Positions 1,796-16,287 of a stretch of 59,199 nt of DNA are shown piece after piece. A program made the translations under genes and the position numbers. Below the pieces are notes generated by a model. That model did no database searches, was not told the origin of the DNA, and saw only the letters and a program-made list of their open reading frames with translations. Numbering within the stretch: the first letter of the stretch is position 1; every line of letters begins with the position of its first letter. The stretch is from Candidatus Neomarinimicrobium atlanticum (lineage in GTDB: Bacteria > Fidelibacterota > Marinisomatia > Marinisomatales > Marinisomataceae): assembly GCA_000402815.1 (NCBI GenBank), contig AQSA01000011.1, positions 1-59,199 on the forward strand, written 5' to 3'.

Positions 1796-1869
<74 letters not shown>

Positions 1870-11404: not shown

Positions 11405-13972
11405 TTAGAAACTATATGTTAATGACATTCCAATTTCTCTTGGAGGTCCAAAAGATTTGTATAGCTTCTCTTCAAATGGAGGTTCTAAAGCAAAAATGAA
11501 TCCTCTATCTGCGTAACTTTCATCTAGGATATTCTTTGCGTAGAATCCTAAGTCAAATTGATTGATTGAATGAGTGTAATATGCATTCAATAAGTGATAT
11601 GGCTCTGATTCAAATTCATCATGCGCAGAATCAAATACAAAACTATCTTTTCCTGAAATTTCAACCATCAAGGAATTGTTTAAAGTGAAATCATAGTTAA
11701 ATGATAAGCTGTAATTCCAGTTTGGTGAATGTGCTTTTTTACCGTGCGCATGTCCTGCATGATCATCCTCATCTCCGTGATCGTCATGACCGTCATCTCC
11801 GTGATCATCATGATCATCATCTCCGTGGTCCTCATCATGGTCATCATCGCCGTGATCTTCATCATGGTCATCATCGCCATGTTCATCGCCATGTTCATCG
11901 CCATGTTCATCATGACCACCCAACTCAACTTCAGAACTCAATAATCCTAAAGTAGCGTTAATAGTAAATTTATCAGTTATTCTAAACTCACCCATTGTTT
12001 CAGAACCATATTCATAGCCTGAATCAGCATTCTTCTTAAAGAAAGCAAATGCATTAGGATTCATTGGATCTAACTGTTCACTTGTTTCATAAATATGACC
12101 ATCATGCTCTAAGTAAAACAAAGAAGTAGATAACTTCATATTATCTGTATACCATCTTACTCCAGTAGTAACATCATGATAAATTTCTGCATCATATGTT
12201 TTTTCATCTCCCTCTAAATAAGGATTCTGATTTATACCTGCAGGATGATATCCTCTAGCATAATAAGTAAACCAATGAAGATTTTGAGCTGGATGTAATT
12301 CATATGAAACTTTAAATGAATTATCGAAATCGCCATCAATTTCAAAGCTTGCGCTTCTATTATTGAAATCGTCATATAACATATCTCTCTTTTCTGATCT
12401 AAATCCAAAAGATAGTGTTGAATTGTTATCAAAATTAACTGCTAATTCACCATAAACAGACTTTGAAGTGATATCATAGCCAGAAGCTAAATCTGTTGCA
12501 GAACCTCCAAAAATATATCCTGCGCCATCAGTTTTTTCTTCATAGCTTGAATGATACATTCCAATCACATAGTCAAATCTATTATCATTGGCAGAATTTG
12601 ATCTCAATCTAAAATCAACAGTTCTTGTATCGATATCTCTATCAAAAGAATCAAAGAAGTCGTAAGTCCTTGCATCAAATTCAACATGTTCCTCGTCATG
12701 ATGATCGTCATCATGATCATCTCCATGGTCATCATCATGATCGTCATCTCCGTGATCATCTCCGTGATCATCATCACCATCATGGTCATCATGATCTTCA
12801 TAATCCAACCAGAAGTCATAATTTCCCCAATCAGAATCATAGCTGTGTAATGTTTCATTATTAGACATACCAATATTTAAGTCAATGAAACCTTCACCTA
12901 CATCATAGGTGTAGTCTGCTATAAAAATCTGCGATTTTTGACTGTCTTTTCCTGGATTATCTGAATAAGTAATATTATCAGTATTATTGTCTGGAGCCCA
13001 ATTATCATATCCATTATCAAAATCAGAAGAGATAATTGTATATTTTTGAGTAAGATTATTTTCATCTTTTAGAAGCTTTGCTCTAAATGAGGTTTCATCT
13101 CTATTTGCAGATGCATAATCTATGCCTGAAGCAATATTATCTTTATATCCATCTGATACATTAGAATGACCAACTAATCTTAATTTCCAACCATTATCAA
13201 GAGGTAGATTATAAACAAGTCCATTTGTGTAGGTATTGTATGAACCAAACTGGCTCAAAACATATCCTTCTTTTTTGTCTGTTGGATCTTGGGTTTTAAA
13301 ATTAATCAAACCAGAAGATGCTGATGCACCAAATAAACTAGTTTGGACACCCATTAGTACTTCTACTTGCTGCATATCAAAAAGAGGTGTAATCATACCT
13401 AATTCTGATAAGTCCATTCCATCCAGGACTAATCCAACATAAGTACTTGGAGGTCCTTGGTCAGCATATCGACTCACAGAGCCCTCTCCTCTTATTTGGA
13501 AATATCTTGGTCTAGATGTTCCACCTGCATAGTTCAAATTTGGAACTTGTTGAATCAAGTCTGAAAAGTGTTGTCCTTTTCTAACTTCAAGCTCATCATT
13601 GAAAATCATTGCTGAACTAGCCAAATCACCTTCATTGACCTTACGAAGCGATGAGTAAACTTTTACTTCATCAAAAGATAAAGCCTCTTTCACAAGCTTA
13701 AACATCATGGACTGATTTAATAGTCCATCAGCAGTTGCATTTTTGTATCCAATAACAGATACTTCAACTGTTCCATTACTGCTAACACTTAGGACAAATT
13801 TTCCATTGTCATCTGTACTGGTTCCAGCAATGCTTGTTCCACTATCATCAAGAACAGATACATTTGCATCCTTTAGAGGAAGACCTGTTTTTTTATCAAC
13901 GACTAACCCAGTAATTGTTGACTGAGCAAAAGTCATGCCGATAAATAGTAATGTTAATATAGTATTTTTCAT
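11405..13972 (-). CDS. TonB-dependent receptor with N-terminal CarboxypepD-like domain and two His/Asp-rich inserts (probable Zn/Ni/Co uptake)
   Basis: Signal peptide; TITGLVVDKKTGLPL; plug motifs IQQVPNL, FQIRG, QVEVLMG; C-terminal PPREIGMSLTYSF. Confidence 0.92.
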   Translation of the reverse strand: MKNTILTLLFIGMTFAQSTITGLVVDKKTGLPLKDANVSVLDDSGTSIAGTSTDDNGKFVLSVSSNGTVEVSVIGYKNATADGLLNQSMMFKLVKEALSFDEVKVYSSLRKVNEGDLASSAMIFNDELEVRKGQHFSDLIQQVPNLNYAGGTSRPRYFQIRGEGSVSRYADQGPPSTYVGLVLDGMDLSELGMITPLFDMQQVEVLMGVQTSLFGASASSGLINFKTQDPTDKKEGYVLSQFGSYNTYTNGLVYNLPLDNGWKLRLVGHSNVSDGYKDNIASGIDYASANRDETSFRAKLLKDENNLTQKYTIISSDFDNGYDNWAPDNNTDNITYSDNPGKDSQKSQIFIADYTYDVGEGFIDLNIGMSNNETLHSYDSDWGNYDFWLDYEDHDDHDGDDDHGDDHGDDDHDDDHGDDHDDDHHDEEHVEFDARTYDFFDSFDRDIDTRTVDFRLRSNSANDNRFDYVIGMYHSSYEEKTDGAGYIFGGSATDLASGYDITSKSVYGELAVNFDNNSTLSFGFRSEKRDMLYDDFNNRSASFEIDGDFDNSFKVSYELHPAQNLHWFTYYARGYHPAGINQNPYLEGDEKTYDAEIYHDVTTGVRWYTDNMKLSTSLFYLEHDGHIYETSEQLDPMNPNAFAFFKKNADSGYEYGSETMGEFRITDKFTINATLGLLSSEVELGGHDEHGDEHGDEHGDDDHDEDHGDDDHDEDHGDDDHDDHGDDGHDDHGDEDDHAGHAHGKKAHSPNWNYSLSFNYDFTLNNSLMVEISGKDSFVFDSAHDEFESEPYHLLNAYYTHSINQFDLGFYAKNILDESYADRGFIFALEPPFEEKLYKSFGPPREIGMSLTYSF
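11744..11920 (-). repeat. In-frame His/Asp tandem repeats (DEHG x3, EDHGDDDHD-type units)
   Basis: gccatgttcatc x3 at about 11877-11912 plus imperfect repeats; encodes HDEHGDEHGDEHGDDDHDEDHGDDDH...HAGHAH. Confidence 0.9.
12685..12802 (-). repeat. Second in-frame His/Asp repeat tract
   Basis: Encodes EDHDDHDGDDDHGDDHGDDDHDDDHGDDHDDDHHDEEH. Confidence 0.9.
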
Positions 13973-14005
13973 TTTTTTTCTCCTTAAAATGAATTTAATA
14001 AATTT

Positions 14006-14024
14006 GATACCCTTTCGAGGTATC
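14006..14024 (-). promoter_or_regulatory. GAAA-tetraloop hairpin between the leader ORF and the receptor RBS
   Basis: Minus strand GATACC(T)C-GAAA-GGGTATC; AAGGAG RBS at 13980-13985. Confidence 0.55.
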
Positions 14025-14051: not shown

Positions 14052-14348
14052 TTAAGCTTGAGGTGGAGACTTGTTCGAAATACTATAGATATTATTAAAT
14101 AAATACGATTTGTTCTCAAATAAAGTCGAATTAAAAGAGAAGCTATTTATAGCAATGGAAGCATTGTCTACAATAAGACTATTAACACTTAGATTACATA
14201 TATCACATTCATATGTGTCGGTGTTTACAGATTTAGTAGAATGTTCACGTAAATCATGACCCAATGAGTTTAAATCATGACTATGCACATGAATATTCAT
14301 GAAGAATATTCCAATTGTTAATATATATGAAATGTATTTATTCAGCAT
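14052..14348 (-). CDS. DUF2946/CruR-like leader protein (putative metal-responsive upstream ORF)
   Basis: N-terminal hydrophobic segment, HVHSH..H..H, CDIC, C-terminal NKSPPQA; lies 79 nt upstream of the TonB receptor on the same strand. Confidence 0.7.
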   Translation of the reverse strand: MLNKYISYILTIGIFFMNIHVHSHDLNSLGHDLREHSTKSVNTDTYECDICNLSVNSLIVDNASIAINSFSFNSTLFENKSYLFNNIYSISNKSPPQA

Positions 14349-14445
14349 TTTTTATATTGTCCTTCCGCTAGCATTATCTAGGTCAAGTTATAGGGTATTT
14401 TCTCAGCAATTGCACCCCTCTTAAAAAATTTGTAAGTTGGAATCT

Positions 14446-16287
14446 ATGAAACAAGAAATTACAATAAAAGCATTTTTTCTCAGTATAATCTTATCTATCG
14501 TTCTCTCGTCTGCTATGGCTTATTTGGGACTATATGCTGGAATGACAATTTCTGCTTCTATTCCTGCTGCAATTATGTCAATGGGAATCTTAAAATTATT
14601 TCGTGAGTCAAATATTCTTGAAAATAACATTGTACAAACCGCTGCATCAGCTGGAGAATCACTAGCAGCTGGGGTAATTTTTACGATTCCTGCCTTATTA
14701 TTAATTGGCTATTGGGATACAATTGATTACTGGGAAGTCACAAAAATTGCAATGGCTGGTGGAGTTCTAGGCGCACTCTTCACTGTACCATTGAGACGTG
14801 CATTAATTTTAAAAGCAAATTTACGTTTTCCCGAAGGGGTTGCAACGGCCGCAGTATTAAAAACTGGGCATGAATCAGATGCTAAAAAATCGAGTGAAAG
14901 CTTAAAATTAATTGGTTTTTCAGCTCTTATTGGCGGTATTGTTAAGCTTGGAGAATTGGCATTTGGAATTTGGTCTAGTGCTGTAGGTGGAGCAATAGCT
15001 ATTAGAGGCGCTATTTTTGGAATGGGAGCAAGTCTTTCTCCTTCTCTTATTAGTGTAGGGTATATCGTTGGTCGAAATATTGGAATACTAGCATTTTCTG
15101 GTGGATTAATTTCATGGGCAGTAGCGATACCTATTTATTCTTATTTATATGGCTTTGAAGGAGAATCATTATTTGAGGGAGCAAATATTATTTGGAATGC
15201 AAAAATACGTTATTTAGGTGTTGGTGCAATGGTAGTTGGTGGAATCTGGTCTGTTATCCAATTAGCAAAACCTCTTGTTGAAAGTATACAATTGAGCTTA
15301 AAAACATTAGGAGAAAGTGGCGATGATATTCCACTGGAAGAAAGAGATTTACCTGTTAACTATGTCTTTATGGCTATTTTGTTAATGCTAATTCCAATAT
15401 CATTTACATACTTTGATATTATTTCATCTTGGACTTCAGCAATAACACTATCTATTATTATGTGTGTATTTGGATTTTTATTTTCTGCTGTTGCAGCTTA
15501 TATGGCAGGAGTAGTTGGATCTTCAAATAACCCTATATCTGGTGTAACAATTGCTACAATACTTTTTAGCTCATTGCTAATTATTACTTTCTTTGATATT
15601 GATTCTTCTAAAGGAGCTGCTGCTGCTATTTTAATTGGCGCTGTAGTATGTTGCGCTGCTGCAATTGGTGGTGATAACTTACAAGATCTTAAAACCGGTA
15701 ATATTGTTGGAGCTACACCATGGAAACAACAAGTAATGCAGTTAGTTGGTGTTGTTAGTTCAGCTCTAACATTAGGAATTGTCTTAACGCTTCTACATGA
15801 AGCTTATGGTATAGGAAGCTCAGACTTACCTGCACCTCAAGCAGTATTGATGACTAGTGTAGCAAATGGTGTATTCTCCGGTAATCTAGAATGGGGCATG
15901 ATTTATGCTGGAGCAGTATTGGGTGTATTAATCATTATGCTCGATCAGTATCAATTAAAAAGGGGGGCAGAATTTAGAGTTCCTATACTAGCAGTAGCGA
16001 TTGGTATTTATCTTCCTATTGAATTAACTCTTCCAATTTTTGTTGGTGGAATGCTTAATCATTTTGCTGGAAAAACTGCTTCTGAAACAGGAAAAAATAA
16101 TGGTTTATTGCTAGCTTCAGGTTTAATTACAGGAGAAGCATTGATGGCTATATTTATTGCGATACCATTATTCTATGATAAAAATTTCTGGCCTGAATAT
16201 GCCTTACCAGCTCCTTATAATGACATCGTAGCATTAGCTCTAATATCAGCTATTATTGTTGGATTATATCGAGTAGCAAAAAAATAA
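14446..16287 (+). CDS. OPT-family (oligopeptide/YSL-like) transporter
   Basis: AYLGLYAGMTISASIPAA, ENNIVQTAASAGES, FPEGVATA, SNNPISG, DNLQDLKTG, APQA; ATG at 14446 preferred over TTG at 14437. Confidence 0.92.
   Translation: MKQEITIKAFFLSIILSIVLSSAMAYLGLYAGMTISASIPAAIMSMGILKLFRESNILENNIVQTAASAGESLAAGVIFTIPALLLIGYWDTIDYWEVTKIAMAGGVLGALFTVPLRRALILKANLRFPEGVATAAVLKTGHESDAKKSSESLKLIGFSALIGGIVKLGELAFGIWSSAVGGAIAIRGAIFGMGASLSPSLISVGYIVGRNIGILAFSGGLISWAVAIPIYSYLYGFEGESLFEGANIIWNAKIRYLGVGAMVVGGIWSVIQLAKPLVESIQLSLKTLGESGDDIPLEERDLPVNYVFMAILLMLIPISFTYFDIISSWTSAITLSIIMCVFGFLFSAVAAYMAGVVGSSNNPISGVTIATILFSSLLIITFFDIDSSKGAAAAILIGAVVCCAAAIGGDNLQDLKTGNIVGATPWKQQVMQLVGVVSSALTLGIVLTLLHEAYGIGSSDLPAPQAVLMTSVANGVFSGNLEWGMIYAGAVLGVLIIMLDQYQLKRGAEFRVPILAVAIGIYLPIELTLPIFVGGMLNHFAGKTASETGKNNGLLLASGLITGEALMAIFIAIPLFYDKNFWPEYALPAPYNDIVALALISAIIVGLYRVAKK

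What the first reader, a model, noticed from the sequence alone, without database searches (positions are those of the whole stretch)
14052..14348. Candidate metal-sensing ribosome-arrest leader with a non-canonical KSPP motif controlling a His-rich TonB receptor
Seen: a 98-aa ORF directly upstream of the receptor with an export/TM segment, His cluster HVHSH..H..H, CDIC (14196-14207), a low-complexity spacer and terminal N-K-S-P-P-Q-A (KSPP at 14061-14072). Known: DUF2946 leaders such as Bordetella CruR have this signal + CxxC + RAPP layout, precede TonB receptors and regulate them post-transcriptionally in response to copper; RAPP/RGPP-type motifs stall ribosomes. Inference: a divergent member in a deep marine lineage, with K-S replacing R-A/G and an added His cluster, which may sense Zn/Ni/Co rather than Cu. 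I saw no obvious Fur/Zur box upstream, so this leader may be the main control. With the receptor and the divergent OPT this is the best candidate for an undescribed system here.
Basis: partly seen in the sequence, partly recalled or inferred. Interest (0 to 1): 0.8.

Follow-up and report, generated by a model that had tools for sequence, protein, structure and literature searches.

The report
Thiamine-gated leader peptide before a receptor
A small conserved gene in front of an outer-membrane import receptor looks like a metal-sensing "stalling" leader peptide with a previously undescribed lysine-type stall motif.

Summary
It belongs to an unnamed family of about 80 protein clusters in Marinimicrobia (SAR406) and Bacteroidota (Chitinophagaceae). 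The family invariants are a signal-anchor helix, HxH, CxxC and a C-proximal N-[K/R]-[S/G]-P-P. The CxxC-to-motif linker is 41-44 aa long (43 in all 50 Bacteroidota members) but only about 21% identical. The motif codons vary synonymously, and AlphaFold is confident only about the N-terminal helix. Downstream genes are TonB receptors of several subfamilies or an ABC ATPase. This is the CruR/CutF (DUF2946) design, but the ORF fails the Pfam model; three relatives score just under threshold. Lys replaces the Arg that experiments found irreplaceable in RAPP arrest peptides. A TPP riboswitch (14343-14429; 53.4 bits here, 57-60 bits in orthologues) abuts the leader's start codon and holds its Shine-Dalgarno sequence in helix P4. 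Stalling, the ligand (metal, and which one) and the coupling mechanism are inferred, not shown. Verdict: a new variant of a known kind, of moderate to high interest.

The parts
14343..14429 (-). TPP (thiamine pyrophosphate) riboswitch aptamer forming the 5' leader of the small ORF. Its 3' end overlaps the ORF's start codon.
   Evidence: Rfam RF00059: 53.4 bits (gathering score 54.3), E 5e-10, full model 1-105, with the THI-box core GGGGUGC..CUGAGA..ACCCU..GAUAAUGCUAGCG.AAGGA. The same position in orthologous loci scores above gathering: L037 59.7, L008 57.3 and L034 57.1 bits. The consensus fold gives P2, P4 and P5, with the AAG of the Shine-Dalgarno sequence AAGGA paired in P4.
14052..14348 (-). 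98-aa leader ORF (uORF) of the receptor operon, stop codon included.
   Evidence: About 80 homologous clusters were found in Marinimicrobia and Bacteroidota. The full-length N-terminus M-x-N-K-Y-I-S is conserved in distant members, which supports the ATG at 14348 rather than M17.
14286..14345 (-). N-terminal signal-anchor or transmembrane helix (residues 2-21), preceded by Lys4.
   Evidence: AlphaFold2 with a 50-sequence alignment gives a helix at residues 2-21 with pLDDT 82-89. It is the only confident element of the model. The hydrophobic segment is conserved in all full-length members.
14277..14285 (-). Conserved HxH (H22, H24) just after the helix.
   Evidence: H22 is invariant and H24 is at least 90% conserved in 50 sequences. 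The Bacteroidota members read W-H-H-H.
14196..14207 (-). CxxC (C48-D-I-C51), the candidate ligand-sensing motif.
   Evidence: Both Cys residues are invariant in 50 sequences.
14073..14195 (-). 41-residue linker (residues 52-92) of fixed length and poorly conserved, low-complexity sequence.
   Evidence: The spacing from CxxC to [KR][SG]PP is 41-44 in 82 proteins and 43 in all 50 Bacteroidota members, whereas the HxH-to-CxxC spacing ranges from 8 to 35. Linker pairwise identity is 21%. pLDDT is 52-66.
14061..14075 (-). N-K-S-P-P (residues 92-96), the candidate ribosome pause or arrest motif.
   Evidence: P95 and P96 are invariant; N92 and K93 are at least 90% conserved. Variants seen are NKGPP, NRGPP and YRGPP. 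The codons vary synonymously: AAC/AAT, AAG/AAA, Ser TCT/TCC/AGC/AGT, and all four Pro codons.
14052..14060 (-). Two-residue variable tail (Q-A) and the stop codon.
   Evidence: The tail after PP is 2 aa in 48 of 82 members and at most 10 aa in all, with variable sequence.
14006..14024 (-). Conserved hairpin GAUACCU-cgaaa-GGGUAUC in the leader-receptor spacer. It is terminator-like but has a weak U tract.
   Evidence: It is the only terminator-like site in the region, against 0.2 expected. It is present in 7 of 9 distinct Marinimicrobia spacers, with one compensatory C-G to U-A change, and is absent in L011 and L041.
13980..13985 (-). The receptor's own Shine-Dalgarno sequence, AAGGAG.
   Evidence: Read directly from the sequence. 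It is conserved in all Marinimicrobia loci.
11405..13972 (-). TonB-dependent receptor (855 aa), the regulated gene.
   Evidence: Pfam CarboxypepD_reg, Plug and TonB_dep_Rec_b-barrel. The best solved-structure match is the plug of the pesticin receptor FyuA, at E 4e-11 only.
12686..12799 (-). His/Asp-rich insert 1 of the receptor (residues 392-429).
   Evidence: It is absent in the L008, L009 and L034 orthologues.
11759..11920 (-). His/Asp-rich insert 2 of the receptor (residues 685-738).
   Evidence: It is present in all Marinimicrobia orthologues and absent from the Bacteroidota receptors that follow family members.
14446..16287 (+). Divergent OPT-family transporter. It is a syntenic neighbour and has not been shown to belong to the system.
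   Evidence: Pfam OPT 7.6e-103 and TIGR00733. It is adjacent in all Marinimicrobia loci but absent next to the Bacteroidota family member examined.

Best explanation
The ORF is a translated cis-regulatory leader (uORF) for the TonB-dependent receptor. It belongs to an undescribed Marinimicrobia/Bacteroidota family built on the same plan as the DUF2946 leaders CruR and CutF.

Proposed mechanism (inferred):
1. The nascent chain is anchored or exported by its N-terminal helix.
2. The HxH and CxxC residues bind a ligand, most plausibly a thiophilic or borderline metal, or report thiol redox state.
3. Because CxxC lies a fixed 41-44 residues before N-K-S-P-P, ligand binding happens while the ribosome is decoding the two Pro codons. 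Binding changes how long the ribosome pauses or arrests there.
4. Ribosome occupancy at the end of the leader then decides whether transcription or translation continues into the receptor. This would work by Rho-type polarity as in CruR, or by mRNA remodelling as in CutF.

In this window a TPP riboswitch is stacked on top. Its P4 helix contains the leader's Shine-Dalgarno sequence and it abuts the AUG. High TPP should therefore block leader translation and, through the same coupling, receptor expression.

Shown here: the conservation pattern, the fixed spacing, the lack of predicted structure, the synteny and the riboswitch. Inferred: the arrest itself, the ligand, the direction of the response and the coupling mechanism.
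For: - Family and invariants. Homologues span two phyla at 18-47% identity, yet only HxH, CxxC and N-[KR]-[SG]-P-P are invariant or nearly so.
- Linker. The length is fixed at 41-44 aa (43 in 50 of 50 Bacteroidota members) while its sequence is about 21% identical and the upstream spacer varies from 8 to 35 aa. This matches the 45+/-2 rule shown to matter functionally in CruR (PMC9426467) and the same 45-residue spacing discussed for CutF (PMC9973294).
- Selection acts on the peptide, not the RNA. Every third position of the motif codons varies, and Ser uses both codon families.
- Position of the motif. It lies 2-10 residues from the stop and the tail is variable.
- Structure. AlphaFold2 is confident only about the N-terminal helix, as was reported for CruR.
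- Downstream genes. They differ while the leader stays the same: 7 receptors of different Pfam barrel types, with or without the CarboxypepD_reg domain, and 3 ABC ATPases.
- Link to RxPP motifs. K/R and S/G interchange at the R and A/G positions of RAPP/RGPP. Gly at the Ala position fully supports arrest and Ser partly supports it in ApdA and ApdP (PMC12992588).
- Remote similarity to DUF2946. A sub-threshold, full-length Pfam DUF2946 match was found (P0067: 20.4 bits, profile positions 7-117 of 117). A collinear weak hhalign match to a profile of CzcI-type proteins, some annotated DUF2946, gave E 7.5e-4 over 61 columns.
- Rut-like tract. The 40 nt after the leader stop in 18 Bacteroidota loci are pyrimidine-rich and G-poor. 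C minus G is +4.8 against 0.0+/-1.0 in controls, and none of 5000 resamples reached the observed value.
- Riboswitch placement. The riboswitch acts on the leader's ribosome-binding site, 376 nt upstream of the receptor's own Shine-Dalgarno sequence. That placement makes sense only if leader translation matters for the receptor.
Against: - No experiment or expression data support any step.
- Lys occupies the position where saturation mutagenesis found that no other residue could replace Arg in ApcA, ApdA, ApdP and SecM (PMC12992588). If arrest occurs it must differ mechanistically, be weaker (an EF-P-sensitive S/G-P-P pause as with CutF's GPPP), or depend on the ribosomes of this lineage.
- The ORF itself fails the DUF2946 model. 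hhalign probability is only 25-66%.
- In the window, the spacer hairpin starts about 27 nt beyond the stop codon, which is out of reach of a ribosome paused at the Pro codons. The spacer is also A-rich rather than C-rich. No concrete coupling element is therefore identified here.
- A predicted pairing between the KSPP codons and the receptor's Shine-Dalgarno sequence is not conserved.
- A TPP input to a receptor with metal-type His/Asp loops has no obvious physiological logic.
- The riboswitch is absent from four sister lineages.
Confidence: 0.6

Rival explanations
1. The ORF encodes a stable, membrane-anchored periplasmic metal-binding or accessory protein, such as a chaperone or receptor partner, that acts in trans. 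On this view the C-terminal NKSPP is a protein-interaction or processing motif, not a translational signal.
For: The signal-anchor, HxH and CxxC are conserved, which is a His2Cys2-type ligand set. The gene is usually linked to a TonB receptor. Lys replaces the Arg that is essential for known RAPP arrest. The profile weakly matches zinc-finger chains in the PDB, at E 0.0045.
Against: The 41-44-aa linker is fixed in length but about 21% identical and low in complexity. No confident fold is predicted beyond the helix, even with a 50-sequence alignment. The downstream partners belong to different receptor subfamilies, or are an ABC ATPase, so no single partner surface is conserved. The tail after PP varies from 2 to 10 aa. 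A pyrimidine-rich tract follows the stop codon.
Confidence: 0.2
2. The TPP riboswitch is the only real regulator here and the receptor imports thiamine or a precursor, like Bacteroides OMthi. The small ORF is merely a translated spacer that passes riboswitch control downstream, and its motifs have no sensing role.
For: The riboswitch is clear in the window and in orthologues. TPP-riboswitch-controlled TonB transporters are established (OMthi BT2390; PMC5613172). The riboswitch controls the leader's ribosome-binding site.
Against: The leader and receptor occur without any riboswitch in L001, L011, L039 and L041 and in all Bacteroidota loci searched. Even so, HxH, CxxC, the spacing and NK[SG]PP stay invariant there. 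A passive spacer would not conserve them across phyla. The receptor's His/Asp-rich loops do not suggest a thiamine ligand.
Confidence: 0.13
3. The ORF is a spurious, non-coding open frame in an AT-rich intergenic region.
For: Gene callers disagree on the start: many database entries are 82-aa versions beginning at M17. No Pfam or NCBIfam family matches.
Against: It is conserved as an ORF across two phyla, with amino-acid-level selection and synonymous substitutions. A riboswitch is positioned on its ribosome-binding site.
Confidence: 0.02

Closest known systems
CruR (Bp2923) of Bordetella pertussis, Pfam DUF2946 (PMC9426467)
   Same: Both are small first ORFs with an N-terminal export signal, an invariant CxxC, a fixed-length spacer to a C-proximal x-x-P-P motif, and 2-3 residues before the stop. 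Both are predicted to be unstructured, are followed by a non-coding spacer and then a TonB-dependent receptor, and belong to families that head varied transporter operons.
   Different: The motif is N-K-S-P-P rather than R-A-P-P. The spacer is 41-44 aa rather than 45+/-2. A conserved HxH is added. The intergenic region is 79 nt and A-rich, against 162 nt and GC-rich in CruR. The host phyla differ: the authors' list of CruR homologues contains no Bacteroidota or Marinimicrobia. The ORF fails the PF11162 model. A TPP riboswitch lies upstream. Cu dependence, arrest and Rho involvement are shown for CruR and untested here.
CutF of Rhodobacter capsulatus and 'CutF-like' proteins (PMC9973294; bioRxiv 10.1101/2025.02.05.636593)
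   Same: Both are exported leaders with a Cys motif about 45 aa upstream of a C-terminal proline motif (CutF: EGPPPRL). That motif is not RAPP and stalls weakly in an EF-P-dependent way. Both have two residues after the prolines. The authors report that 40% of CutF-like proteins come from Bacteroidota and that TonB-like genes are common neighbours.
   Different: CutF has CxxxC and a cleavable Sec signal, and precedes a multicopper oxidase behind a hairpin that masks the Shine-Dalgarno sequence. In the window the conserved hairpin does not include the Shine-Dalgarno sequence. I could not check whether this NK[SG]PP family is among the authors' jackhmmer-derived list, because the list is not among the supplements held.
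RAPP/RGPP arrest peptides (ApdA, ApdP, ApcA, SecM; PMC12992588, PMC10951233)
   Same: A basic residue, a small residue and Pro-Pro lie near the C-terminus of a small secreted or membrane protein upstream of a regulated gene. Gly or Ser occupies the Ala position. Some family members carry a true RGPP.
   Different: About 90-95% of members, including the window ORF, have Lys where no other residue could replace Arg in the tested peptides. An invariant Asn precedes the Lys. No arrest data exist.
CzcI of Cupriavidus metallidurans pMOL30 and related proteins, some annotated 'DUF2946 family protein' (L043-L048)
   Same: The similarity is collinear but weak: a signal sequence ending in P-x-Q, then a His cluster, then D-C-x-x-C-H (hhalign E 7.5e-4, 61 columns). 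Both are first genes of metal transporter operons.
   Different: The CzcI-type proteins end in P-[ED]-R-P and have no PP pair. They precede RND efflux genes. hhalign probability is only 25%.
TPP-riboswitch-controlled TonB transporter OMthi (BT2390) of Bacteroides thetaiotaomicron (PMC5613172)
   Same: A THI-box riboswitch lies in the 5' leader of an operon that encodes a TonB-dependent outer-membrane transporter.
   Different: In the window a 98-aa leader ORF lies between the riboswitch and the receptor, and the riboswitch acts on that ORF's ribosome-binding site. The receptor's similarity to BT2390 could not be tested. The receptor carries His/Asp-rich inserts.
NCBIfam NF047702 'LIC10965 family protein' (Leptospira)
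   Same: Eight of 50 family members match weakly, with a best E of 3.4e-5. LIC10965 is a small hypothetical protein numbered next to the TonB receptor LIC10964 and is induced together with it (PMC3953431).
   Different: All scores fall far below the curated cut-off of 130 bits. The window ORF itself scores 13.7 bits (E 0.057). The motif content of LIC10965 was not examined.

Membership tests
Pfam DUF2946 (PF11162; CruR/CutF family) | Scores at or above the PF11162 gathering threshold of 23.7 bits. | tested here: not met
   The window ORF gives no hit at E<=10. Of 50 relatives, 3 hit below threshold: P0067 at 20.4 bits (E 9e-4, profile 7-117 of 117), P0072 at 19.0 bits and P0059 at 13.9 bits.
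Pfam DUF2946 (PF11162; CruR/CutF family) | An N-terminal signal peptide or an N-in/C-out transmembrane segment, present in more than 95% of members. | tested here: met
   There is a hydrophobic segment after Lys4, and AlphaFold2 gives a helix at residues 2-21 with pLDDT 82-89. It is conserved in all full-length relatives. No dedicated signal-peptide predictor was available.
Pfam DUF2946 (PF11162; CruR/CutF family) | An invariant CxxC motif. | tested here: met
   C48 and C51 are invariant in 50 sequences.
Pfam DUF2946 (PF11162; CruR/CutF family) | [quoted passage not shown] | tested here: not met
   The position and the Pro-Pro pair are met, with 2 residues after PP. The motif, however, is N-K-S-P-P, and the family consensus is N-[KR]-[SG]-P-P with Lys in about 90-95% of members.
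Pfam DUF2946 (PF11162; CruR/CutF family) | Spacing between CxxC and the proline motif conserved to within 1-2 residues (45 in DUF2946). | tested here: met
   The spacing is constant but shorter: 41 in the window, 41-42 in Marinimicrobia, 43 in 50 of 50 Bacteroidota members and 44 in one protein.
Pfam DUF2946 (PF11162; CruR/CutF family) | First gene of an operon for a TonB receptor or metal-homeostasis genes, with a long intergenic spacer. | tested here: met
   The window has a 79-nt spacer and then a TonB receptor. Relatives have 44-276-nt spacers followed by TonB receptors or an ABC ATPase. Operon structure itself was not verified.
Pfam DUF2946 (PF11162; CruR/CutF family) | Metal-dependent control of the downstream gene in cis through ribosome arrest. 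| not testable with these tools
   This needs toeprinting, reporter assays or ribosome profiling.
RAPP/RGPP-type ribosome arrest peptides | An Arg three residues before the A-site Pro, found irreplaceable by mutagenesis. | tested here: not met
   The window has Lys93. Arg occurs in a few relatives only: P0077, P0078, L018, L029, L030 and L031. The requirement is taken from PMC12992588.
RAPP/RGPP-type ribosome arrest peptides | A small residue (Ala or Gly; Ser partly permissive) followed by Pro-Pro, near the C-terminus of a small exported or membrane protein upstream of the regulated gene. | tested here: met
   The window has Ser94-Pro95-Pro96 two residues from the stop. Gly replaces Ser in at least 13 relatives.
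TPP riboswitch (Rfam RF00059) | A covariance-model score at or above the gathering score of 54.3 bits. | tested here: inconclusive
   The window scores 53.4 bits, which is 0.9 below gathering, with E 5e-10 and a full-length match. The orthologous elements score 59.7, 57.3 and 57.1 bits.
TPP riboswitch (Rfam RF00059) | THI-box core sequence and P2/P4/P5 helices, in the 5' leader on the same strand as the regulated gene. | tested here: met
   The alignment to the model and the consensus fold of five orthologues show these features. The Shine-Dalgarno sequence AAGGA lies in P4 and the AUG follows 11 nt later. P1 is poorly formed in the model alignment.
TonB-dependent receptor | A Plug domain plus a 22-strand barrel domain. 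| tested here: met
   PF07715 at 4e-10 and PF00593 at 8e-9, plus an N-terminal CarboxypepD_reg domain.
NCBIfam LIC10965 family (NF047702) | A score at or above the curated cut-off of 130 bits. | tested here: not met
   The window ORF scores 13.7 bits (E 0.057). The best relative reaches E 3.4e-5.

The most novel reading that the evidence does not exclude
N-K-[S/G]-P-P is a genuine ribosome-arrest core specific to this lineage group (Fibrobacteres-Chlorobi-Bacteroidetes and relatives), with Lys doing the job of the supposedly irreplaceable Arg of RAPP. In SAR406 it is wired in series with a TPP riboswitch. The receptor would then be made only when the cell is both low in thiamine and in the right metal or redox state: a natural RNA-sensor plus nascent-peptide-sensor AND gate.
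Probability: 0.3. Interest if true: 0.8.

Novelty: new variant of a known kind. Interest (0 to 1): 0.62.

Why it matters
Metal-sensing arrest leaders (CruR, CutF) have been studied experimentally only in Proteobacteria, and motif mining has keyed on RAPP/RGPP.

This family would extend the principle to Bacteroidota and to uncultured, ocean-abundant SAR406. Its Lys-type motif would be missed both by RxPP searches and by the DUF2946 HMM. That gives a direct test of whether the 'Arg is irreplaceable' rule holds for all ribosomes.

The fixed 41-44-residue ruler is an independent replicate of the 45-residue rule, and it bears on where the sensor sits (tunnel exit or SecY) at the moment of arrest.

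A riboswitch acting on the start site of an arrest leader would be an unusual two-layer cis-regulatory design.

For annotation, the riboswitch changes how the receptor should be described: it is thiamine-responsive, not simply a 'Zn/Ni/Co receptor'.

Tried and rejected
- **Direct DUF2946 membership.** No Pfam or NCBIfam hit for the ORF or for 18 relatives. Only sub-threshold hits appeared among 50 relatives.
- **Exhaustive profile search.** A search of 1.84 billion representative proteins with the close-homologue profile found only 3 clusters. The family was widened through word-indexed profile searches instead.
- **Solved structures.** Only chance-level zinc-finger matches were found.
- **Obtaining DUF2946 sequences for a profile-profile test.**
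  - CruR Table S1 holds accessions only.
  - The CutF supplements held do not include the protein list.
  - tblastn of P0067 against plasmids gave nothing useful.
  - I fell back on CzcI-type proteins from plasmids. hhalign was weak: probability 22-66%.
- **Anti-Shine-Dalgarno idea.** The window's MFE fold pairs the S94-P95 codons (GUCUC) with the receptor's Shine-Dalgarno sequence. This pairing is not in the consensus structure of 9 spacers, so I rejected it as a conserved feature.
- **Spacer hairpin as the direct target of a stalled ribosome.** Rejected on geometry, because the hairpin starts about 27 nt beyond the stop codon.
- **Sigma-70 promoter scan.** Hits were no more frequent than in shuffled sequence. 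No Fur or Zur box search was attempted, because the intergenic region is filled by the riboswitch.
- **Metagenome locus search.** The full alignment A4 failed for lack of a conserved stretch. It was redone with the Bacteroidota subset.
- **A wasted NCBIfam scan.** A scan of ten members chosen to see the LIC10965 alignment picked members that do not hit it.
- **Literature.** Searches for the motif strings found nothing relevant.
- **OPT as part of the system.** It is syntenic only within Marinimicrobia, where the whole neighbourhood is syntenic, so this is uninformative.
Full report
**1. Observation**

The ORF at 14052..14348 (minus strand) encodes 98 aa, with CDIC at residues 48-51 and KSPP at residues 93-96. 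Two residues (QA) and a TAA stop follow. After a 79-nt spacer comes an 855-aa TonB-dependent receptor (11405..13972) with CarboxypepD_reg, Plug and barrel domains. It carries two His/Asp-rich inserts, at residues 392-429 and 685-738. An OPT-family transporter diverges upstream.

The window has 31.6% G+C. Its long ORFs (17,473 residues) contain no [KR][SGA]PP, 12 PP and 3 CxxC. No other ORF of 40 aa or more, in any frame, ends with such a motif.

**2. Source organism and synteny**

The locus is 94% identical at the protein level to a 'Candidatus Neomarinimicrobiota' (SAR406) genome assembled from a metagenome. Across SAR406 contigs the neighbourhood miaB-like / LapA / TPR / SPOR / OPT (opposite strand) / small ORF / receptor / polA is syntenic.

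**3. The family**

Close homologues keep SNKSPPQA invariant.
- An exhaustive profile search of 1.84 billion representative proteins found only three clusters.
- Two word-indexed profile iterations then reached about 80 clusters. They come from Marinimicrobia and from Bacteroidota, mostly Chitinophagaceae: Ferruginibacter, Agriterribacter, Pseudobacter and Flavihumibacter.
- A metagenome scan added 21 loci.

In a 50-sequence alignment with 11-47% identity to the window ORF, the invariant columns are H22, C48, C51, P95 and P96. H24, N92 and K93 are at least 90% conserved. The motif variants are NKSPP (majority), NKGPP, NRGPP and YRGPP. No member carries a precomputed Pfam domain, and sources name them 'hypothetical protein' or nothing.

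**4. Signatures of a leader rather than a folded protein**

- **(a) Fixed spacing.** The distance from CxxC to [KR][SG]PP is 41 (window clade), 42 (other Marinimicrobia), 43 (all 50 Bacteroidota proteins) or 44 (one protein). The HxH-to-CxxC distance ranges from 8 to 35 in the same proteins, so the search did not simply exclude indels.
- **(b) Unconstrained sequence.** The 43-aa linker is 21% identical pairwise, and most of its positions have no preferred residue.
- **(c) No predicted fold.** AlphaFold2 with the 50-sequence alignment gives pLDDT 82-89 for helix 2-21 and 41-66 elsewhere, with pTM 0.27.
- **(d) Variable tail.** The tail after PP is 2 aa in 48 of 82 members and never more than 10. 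Its sequence varies.
- **(e) Peptide-level selection.** The motif codons vary at every synonymous site. Ser uses TCT, TCC, AGC and AGT, and Pro uses all four codons. Selection therefore acts on the peptide, not on an RNA motif.
- **(f) Varied downstream genes.** The gene downstream changes while the leader does not. In Bacteroidota loci it is a TonB receptor with a PF00593 or PF14905 barrel, with or without the CarboxypepD_reg domain (7 of 10 scanned, plus L010), or a 233-aa ABC ATPase followed by an 829-aa ORF (3 of 10).
- **(g) Pyrimidine-rich tract.** In 18 Bacteroidota loci the 40 nt after the leader's stop are pyrimidine-rich and G-poor. Mean C minus G is +4.8, against 0.0+/-1.0 for random windows, and no resample out of 5000 reached the observed value. 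The windows after the stops of other long ORFs average -0.7. This composition is what is expected of a Rho-loading site.

**5. Comparison with the literature**

CruR is defined by an export signal, CXXC and RAPP three residues from the end. It has 45 intervening residues conserved to +/-1-2 and shown to matter functionally. It is predicted to be poorly structured. It controls a TonB receptor through relief of arrest and Rho termination (PMC9426467), and arrest at its Pro-Pro codons has been shown in vitro (PMC12992588).

CutF uses CxxxC, the same 45-residue spacing, and EGPPPRL. Its stalling is EF-P-dependent and melts a hairpin that masks a Shine-Dalgarno sequence (PMC9973294; bioRxiv 2025.02.05.636593). 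The family described here reproduces this plan.

The differences are the motif, a ruler 2-4 residues shorter, a conserved HxH, and the host phyla. The CruR homologue table contains no Bacteroidota or Marinimicrobia entries. The CutF authors do report many jackhmmer-derived 'CutF-like' proteins in Bacteroidota, and I could not check whether this family is among them.

The main counter-evidence is that saturation mutagenesis found that no other residue could replace the Arg of R-A-P in ApcA, ApdA, ApdP and SecM. Gly at the Ala position fully supports arrest and Ser partly supports it.

**6. Formal membership**

The window ORF and its 17 nearest relatives give no PF11162 hit at E<=10. Three of 50 members hit below threshold. 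The best is P0067 at 20.4 bits against 23.7, aligned over the full profile.

A profile of six CzcI-type proteins taken from plasmids, two of them annotated 'DUF2946 family protein', aligns collinearly with the family profile. The aligned features are a signal sequence with P-x-Q, a His cluster and D-C-x-x-C-H. Support is weak: E 7.5e-4 at 25% probability, or 66% for the N-terminal part alone.

I therefore treat the family as working like DUF2946 leaders and probably being remotely related to them. It is not a demonstrated member.

NCBIfam's LIC10965 family matches 8 of 50 members weakly. LIC10965 is numbered next to the TonB receptor LIC10964 in Leptospira and is induced together with it.

**7. 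The riboswitch**

An Rfam scan of the region found a TPP riboswitch at 14343-14429 on the leader's strand. It scores 53.4 bits (gathering 54.3) with E 5e-10 over the full model. The orthologous elements in L037, L008 and L034 score 59.7, 57.3 and 57.1 bits.

The consensus fold places the AAG of the leader's Shine-Dalgarno sequence AAGGA in helix P4, and the AUG follows 11 nt later. By the usual logic of compact translational riboswitches, TPP binding should block initiation on the leader.

The receptor has its own Shine-Dalgarno sequence (AAGGAG, 13980-13985), 376 nt downstream of the leader's start codon. A riboswitch placed on the leader makes regulatory sense only if leader translation is coupled to receptor expression. 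This is indirect support for the leader model.

The riboswitch is a clean presence/absence polymorphism. The gap between OPT and the leader is 94-98 nt where it is present and 22-37 nt where it is absent (L001, L011, L039-L042). It was not found in the Bacteroidota loci.

TPP-controlled TonB transporters are known (OMthi), but without an intervening leader ORF as far as I could find.

**8. What remains unexplained in the window**

The spacer holds a conserved 7-bp hairpin (14006-14024). It has one compensatory change among 7 spacers and a weak U tract. It starts about 27 nt past the stop codon, beyond the reach of a ribosome paused on the Pro codons.

The spacer is A-rich (36 A, 8 C, 10 G, 25 T), unlike the Bacteroidota tracts. 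The coupling element in SAR406 is therefore not identified.

The ligand is unknown. HxH plus CxxC is a generic His2Cys2 set. The receptor's His/Asp inserts suggest a divalent metal, but they are specific to Marinimicrobia. Why thiamine status should gate such a receptor is unclear.

**9. Verdict**

The ORF is a real, conserved, CruR/CutF-like leader with a new Lys-type proline motif, stacked behind a TPP riboswitch. My confidence in the cis-regulatory leader reading is about 0.6.

The rivals are a trans-acting accessory metal-binding protein (0.2), riboswitch-only control with a passive ORF (0.13), and a spurious ORF (0.02).

The novelty class is a new variant of a known kind.

Noticed in passing
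window 14343-14429 (-); L037 3923-4008; L008 732-820; L034 3920-4008: A TPP riboswitch lies directly upstream of the small ORF and overlaps its start codon, with the ORF's Shine-Dalgarno sequence inside helix P4.
   Followed up: yes
L001, L011, L039-L042 compared with window, L002-L006, L008, L009, L034-L037: The riboswitch is a presence/absence polymorphism among closely related SAR406 lineages. The OPT-leader gap is 22-37 nt without it and 94-98 nt with it, in a patchy pattern that implies repeated loss or gain. Loci without it also lack a recognisable Shine-Dalgarno sequence before the leader ATG.
   Followed up: partly
window 14429-14439 (-): An 11-nt block, CAACTTACAAA, is conserved in all Marinimicrobia loci with or without the riboswitch. 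It sits immediately 5' of the riboswitch, or of the leader ATG where the riboswitch is absent. It could be a promoter -10-like element shared by the divergent genes.
   Followed up: no
window 14437-14448 (+): The ORF lister starts the OPT gene at TTG 14437 (616 aa). Orthologues are called as 612-613 aa beginning MKQEIT, so ATG 14446 is the likelier start.
   Followed up: partly
window 12686-12799 and 11759-11920 (-); orthologues in L004, L008, L009, L034-L041: The receptor's His/Asp-rich inserts are length-polymorphic low-complexity tracts, giving receptor lengths of 791-860 aa. Insert 1 is missing in L008, L009 and L034. On the opposite strand the tracts create long spurious ORFs rich in His, Arg or Met.
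   Followed up: partly
18 Bacteroidota loci (L010, L013, L014, L016-L020, L022, L023, L025-L031, L033), 40 nt after the leader stop: A pyrimidine-rich, G-poor tract (for example TCCTCCATTCTTTCC or CCTCCTCCTTATTTTTTC) immediately follows the leader ORF. Its composition is rut-like, or it may be another conserved RNA feature.
   Followed up: partly
L018 519-1217; L027 3076-3774; L030 4443-5141 and 5192-7681: In three Bacteroidota loci the leader precedes a 233-aa ABC ATPase, followed in L030 by an 829-aa ORF that was not scanned and may be the permease. These leaders therefore do not head only receptor operons.
   Followed up: partly
P0006-P0013, P0021 (database entries): Many public gene calls truncate the ORF to 82 aa starting at Met17. 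This removes the signal-anchor helix, so automated annotation hides the family's architecture.
   Followed up: partly
P0016 and P0024: P0016 reads SNKSQPLV, with the first Pro replaced by Gln. P0024 diverges in frame after residue 62 and lacks the motif. These may be sequencing errors or natural loss-of-function variants.
   Followed up: no
NCBIfam NF047702 (LIC10965 family): Eight of 50 family members weakly match this Leptospira family. LIC10965 is numbered next to the TonB receptor LIC10964 and is induced together with it, so similar leaders may exist in Spirochaetota.
   Followed up: partly
L043 15176-15523 (pMOL30 czcI) and L044-L048: The CzcI-type proteins, two of them annotated 'DUF2946 family protein', end in a conserved P-[ED]-R-P-x-W motif, and CzcI itself contains R-A-P-D. 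These look like decayed or alternative versions of the RAPP position.
   Followed up: no
window 1796-1869 (-): A tRNA gene is the only other Rfam family in the window that reaches its gathering score.
   Followed up: no
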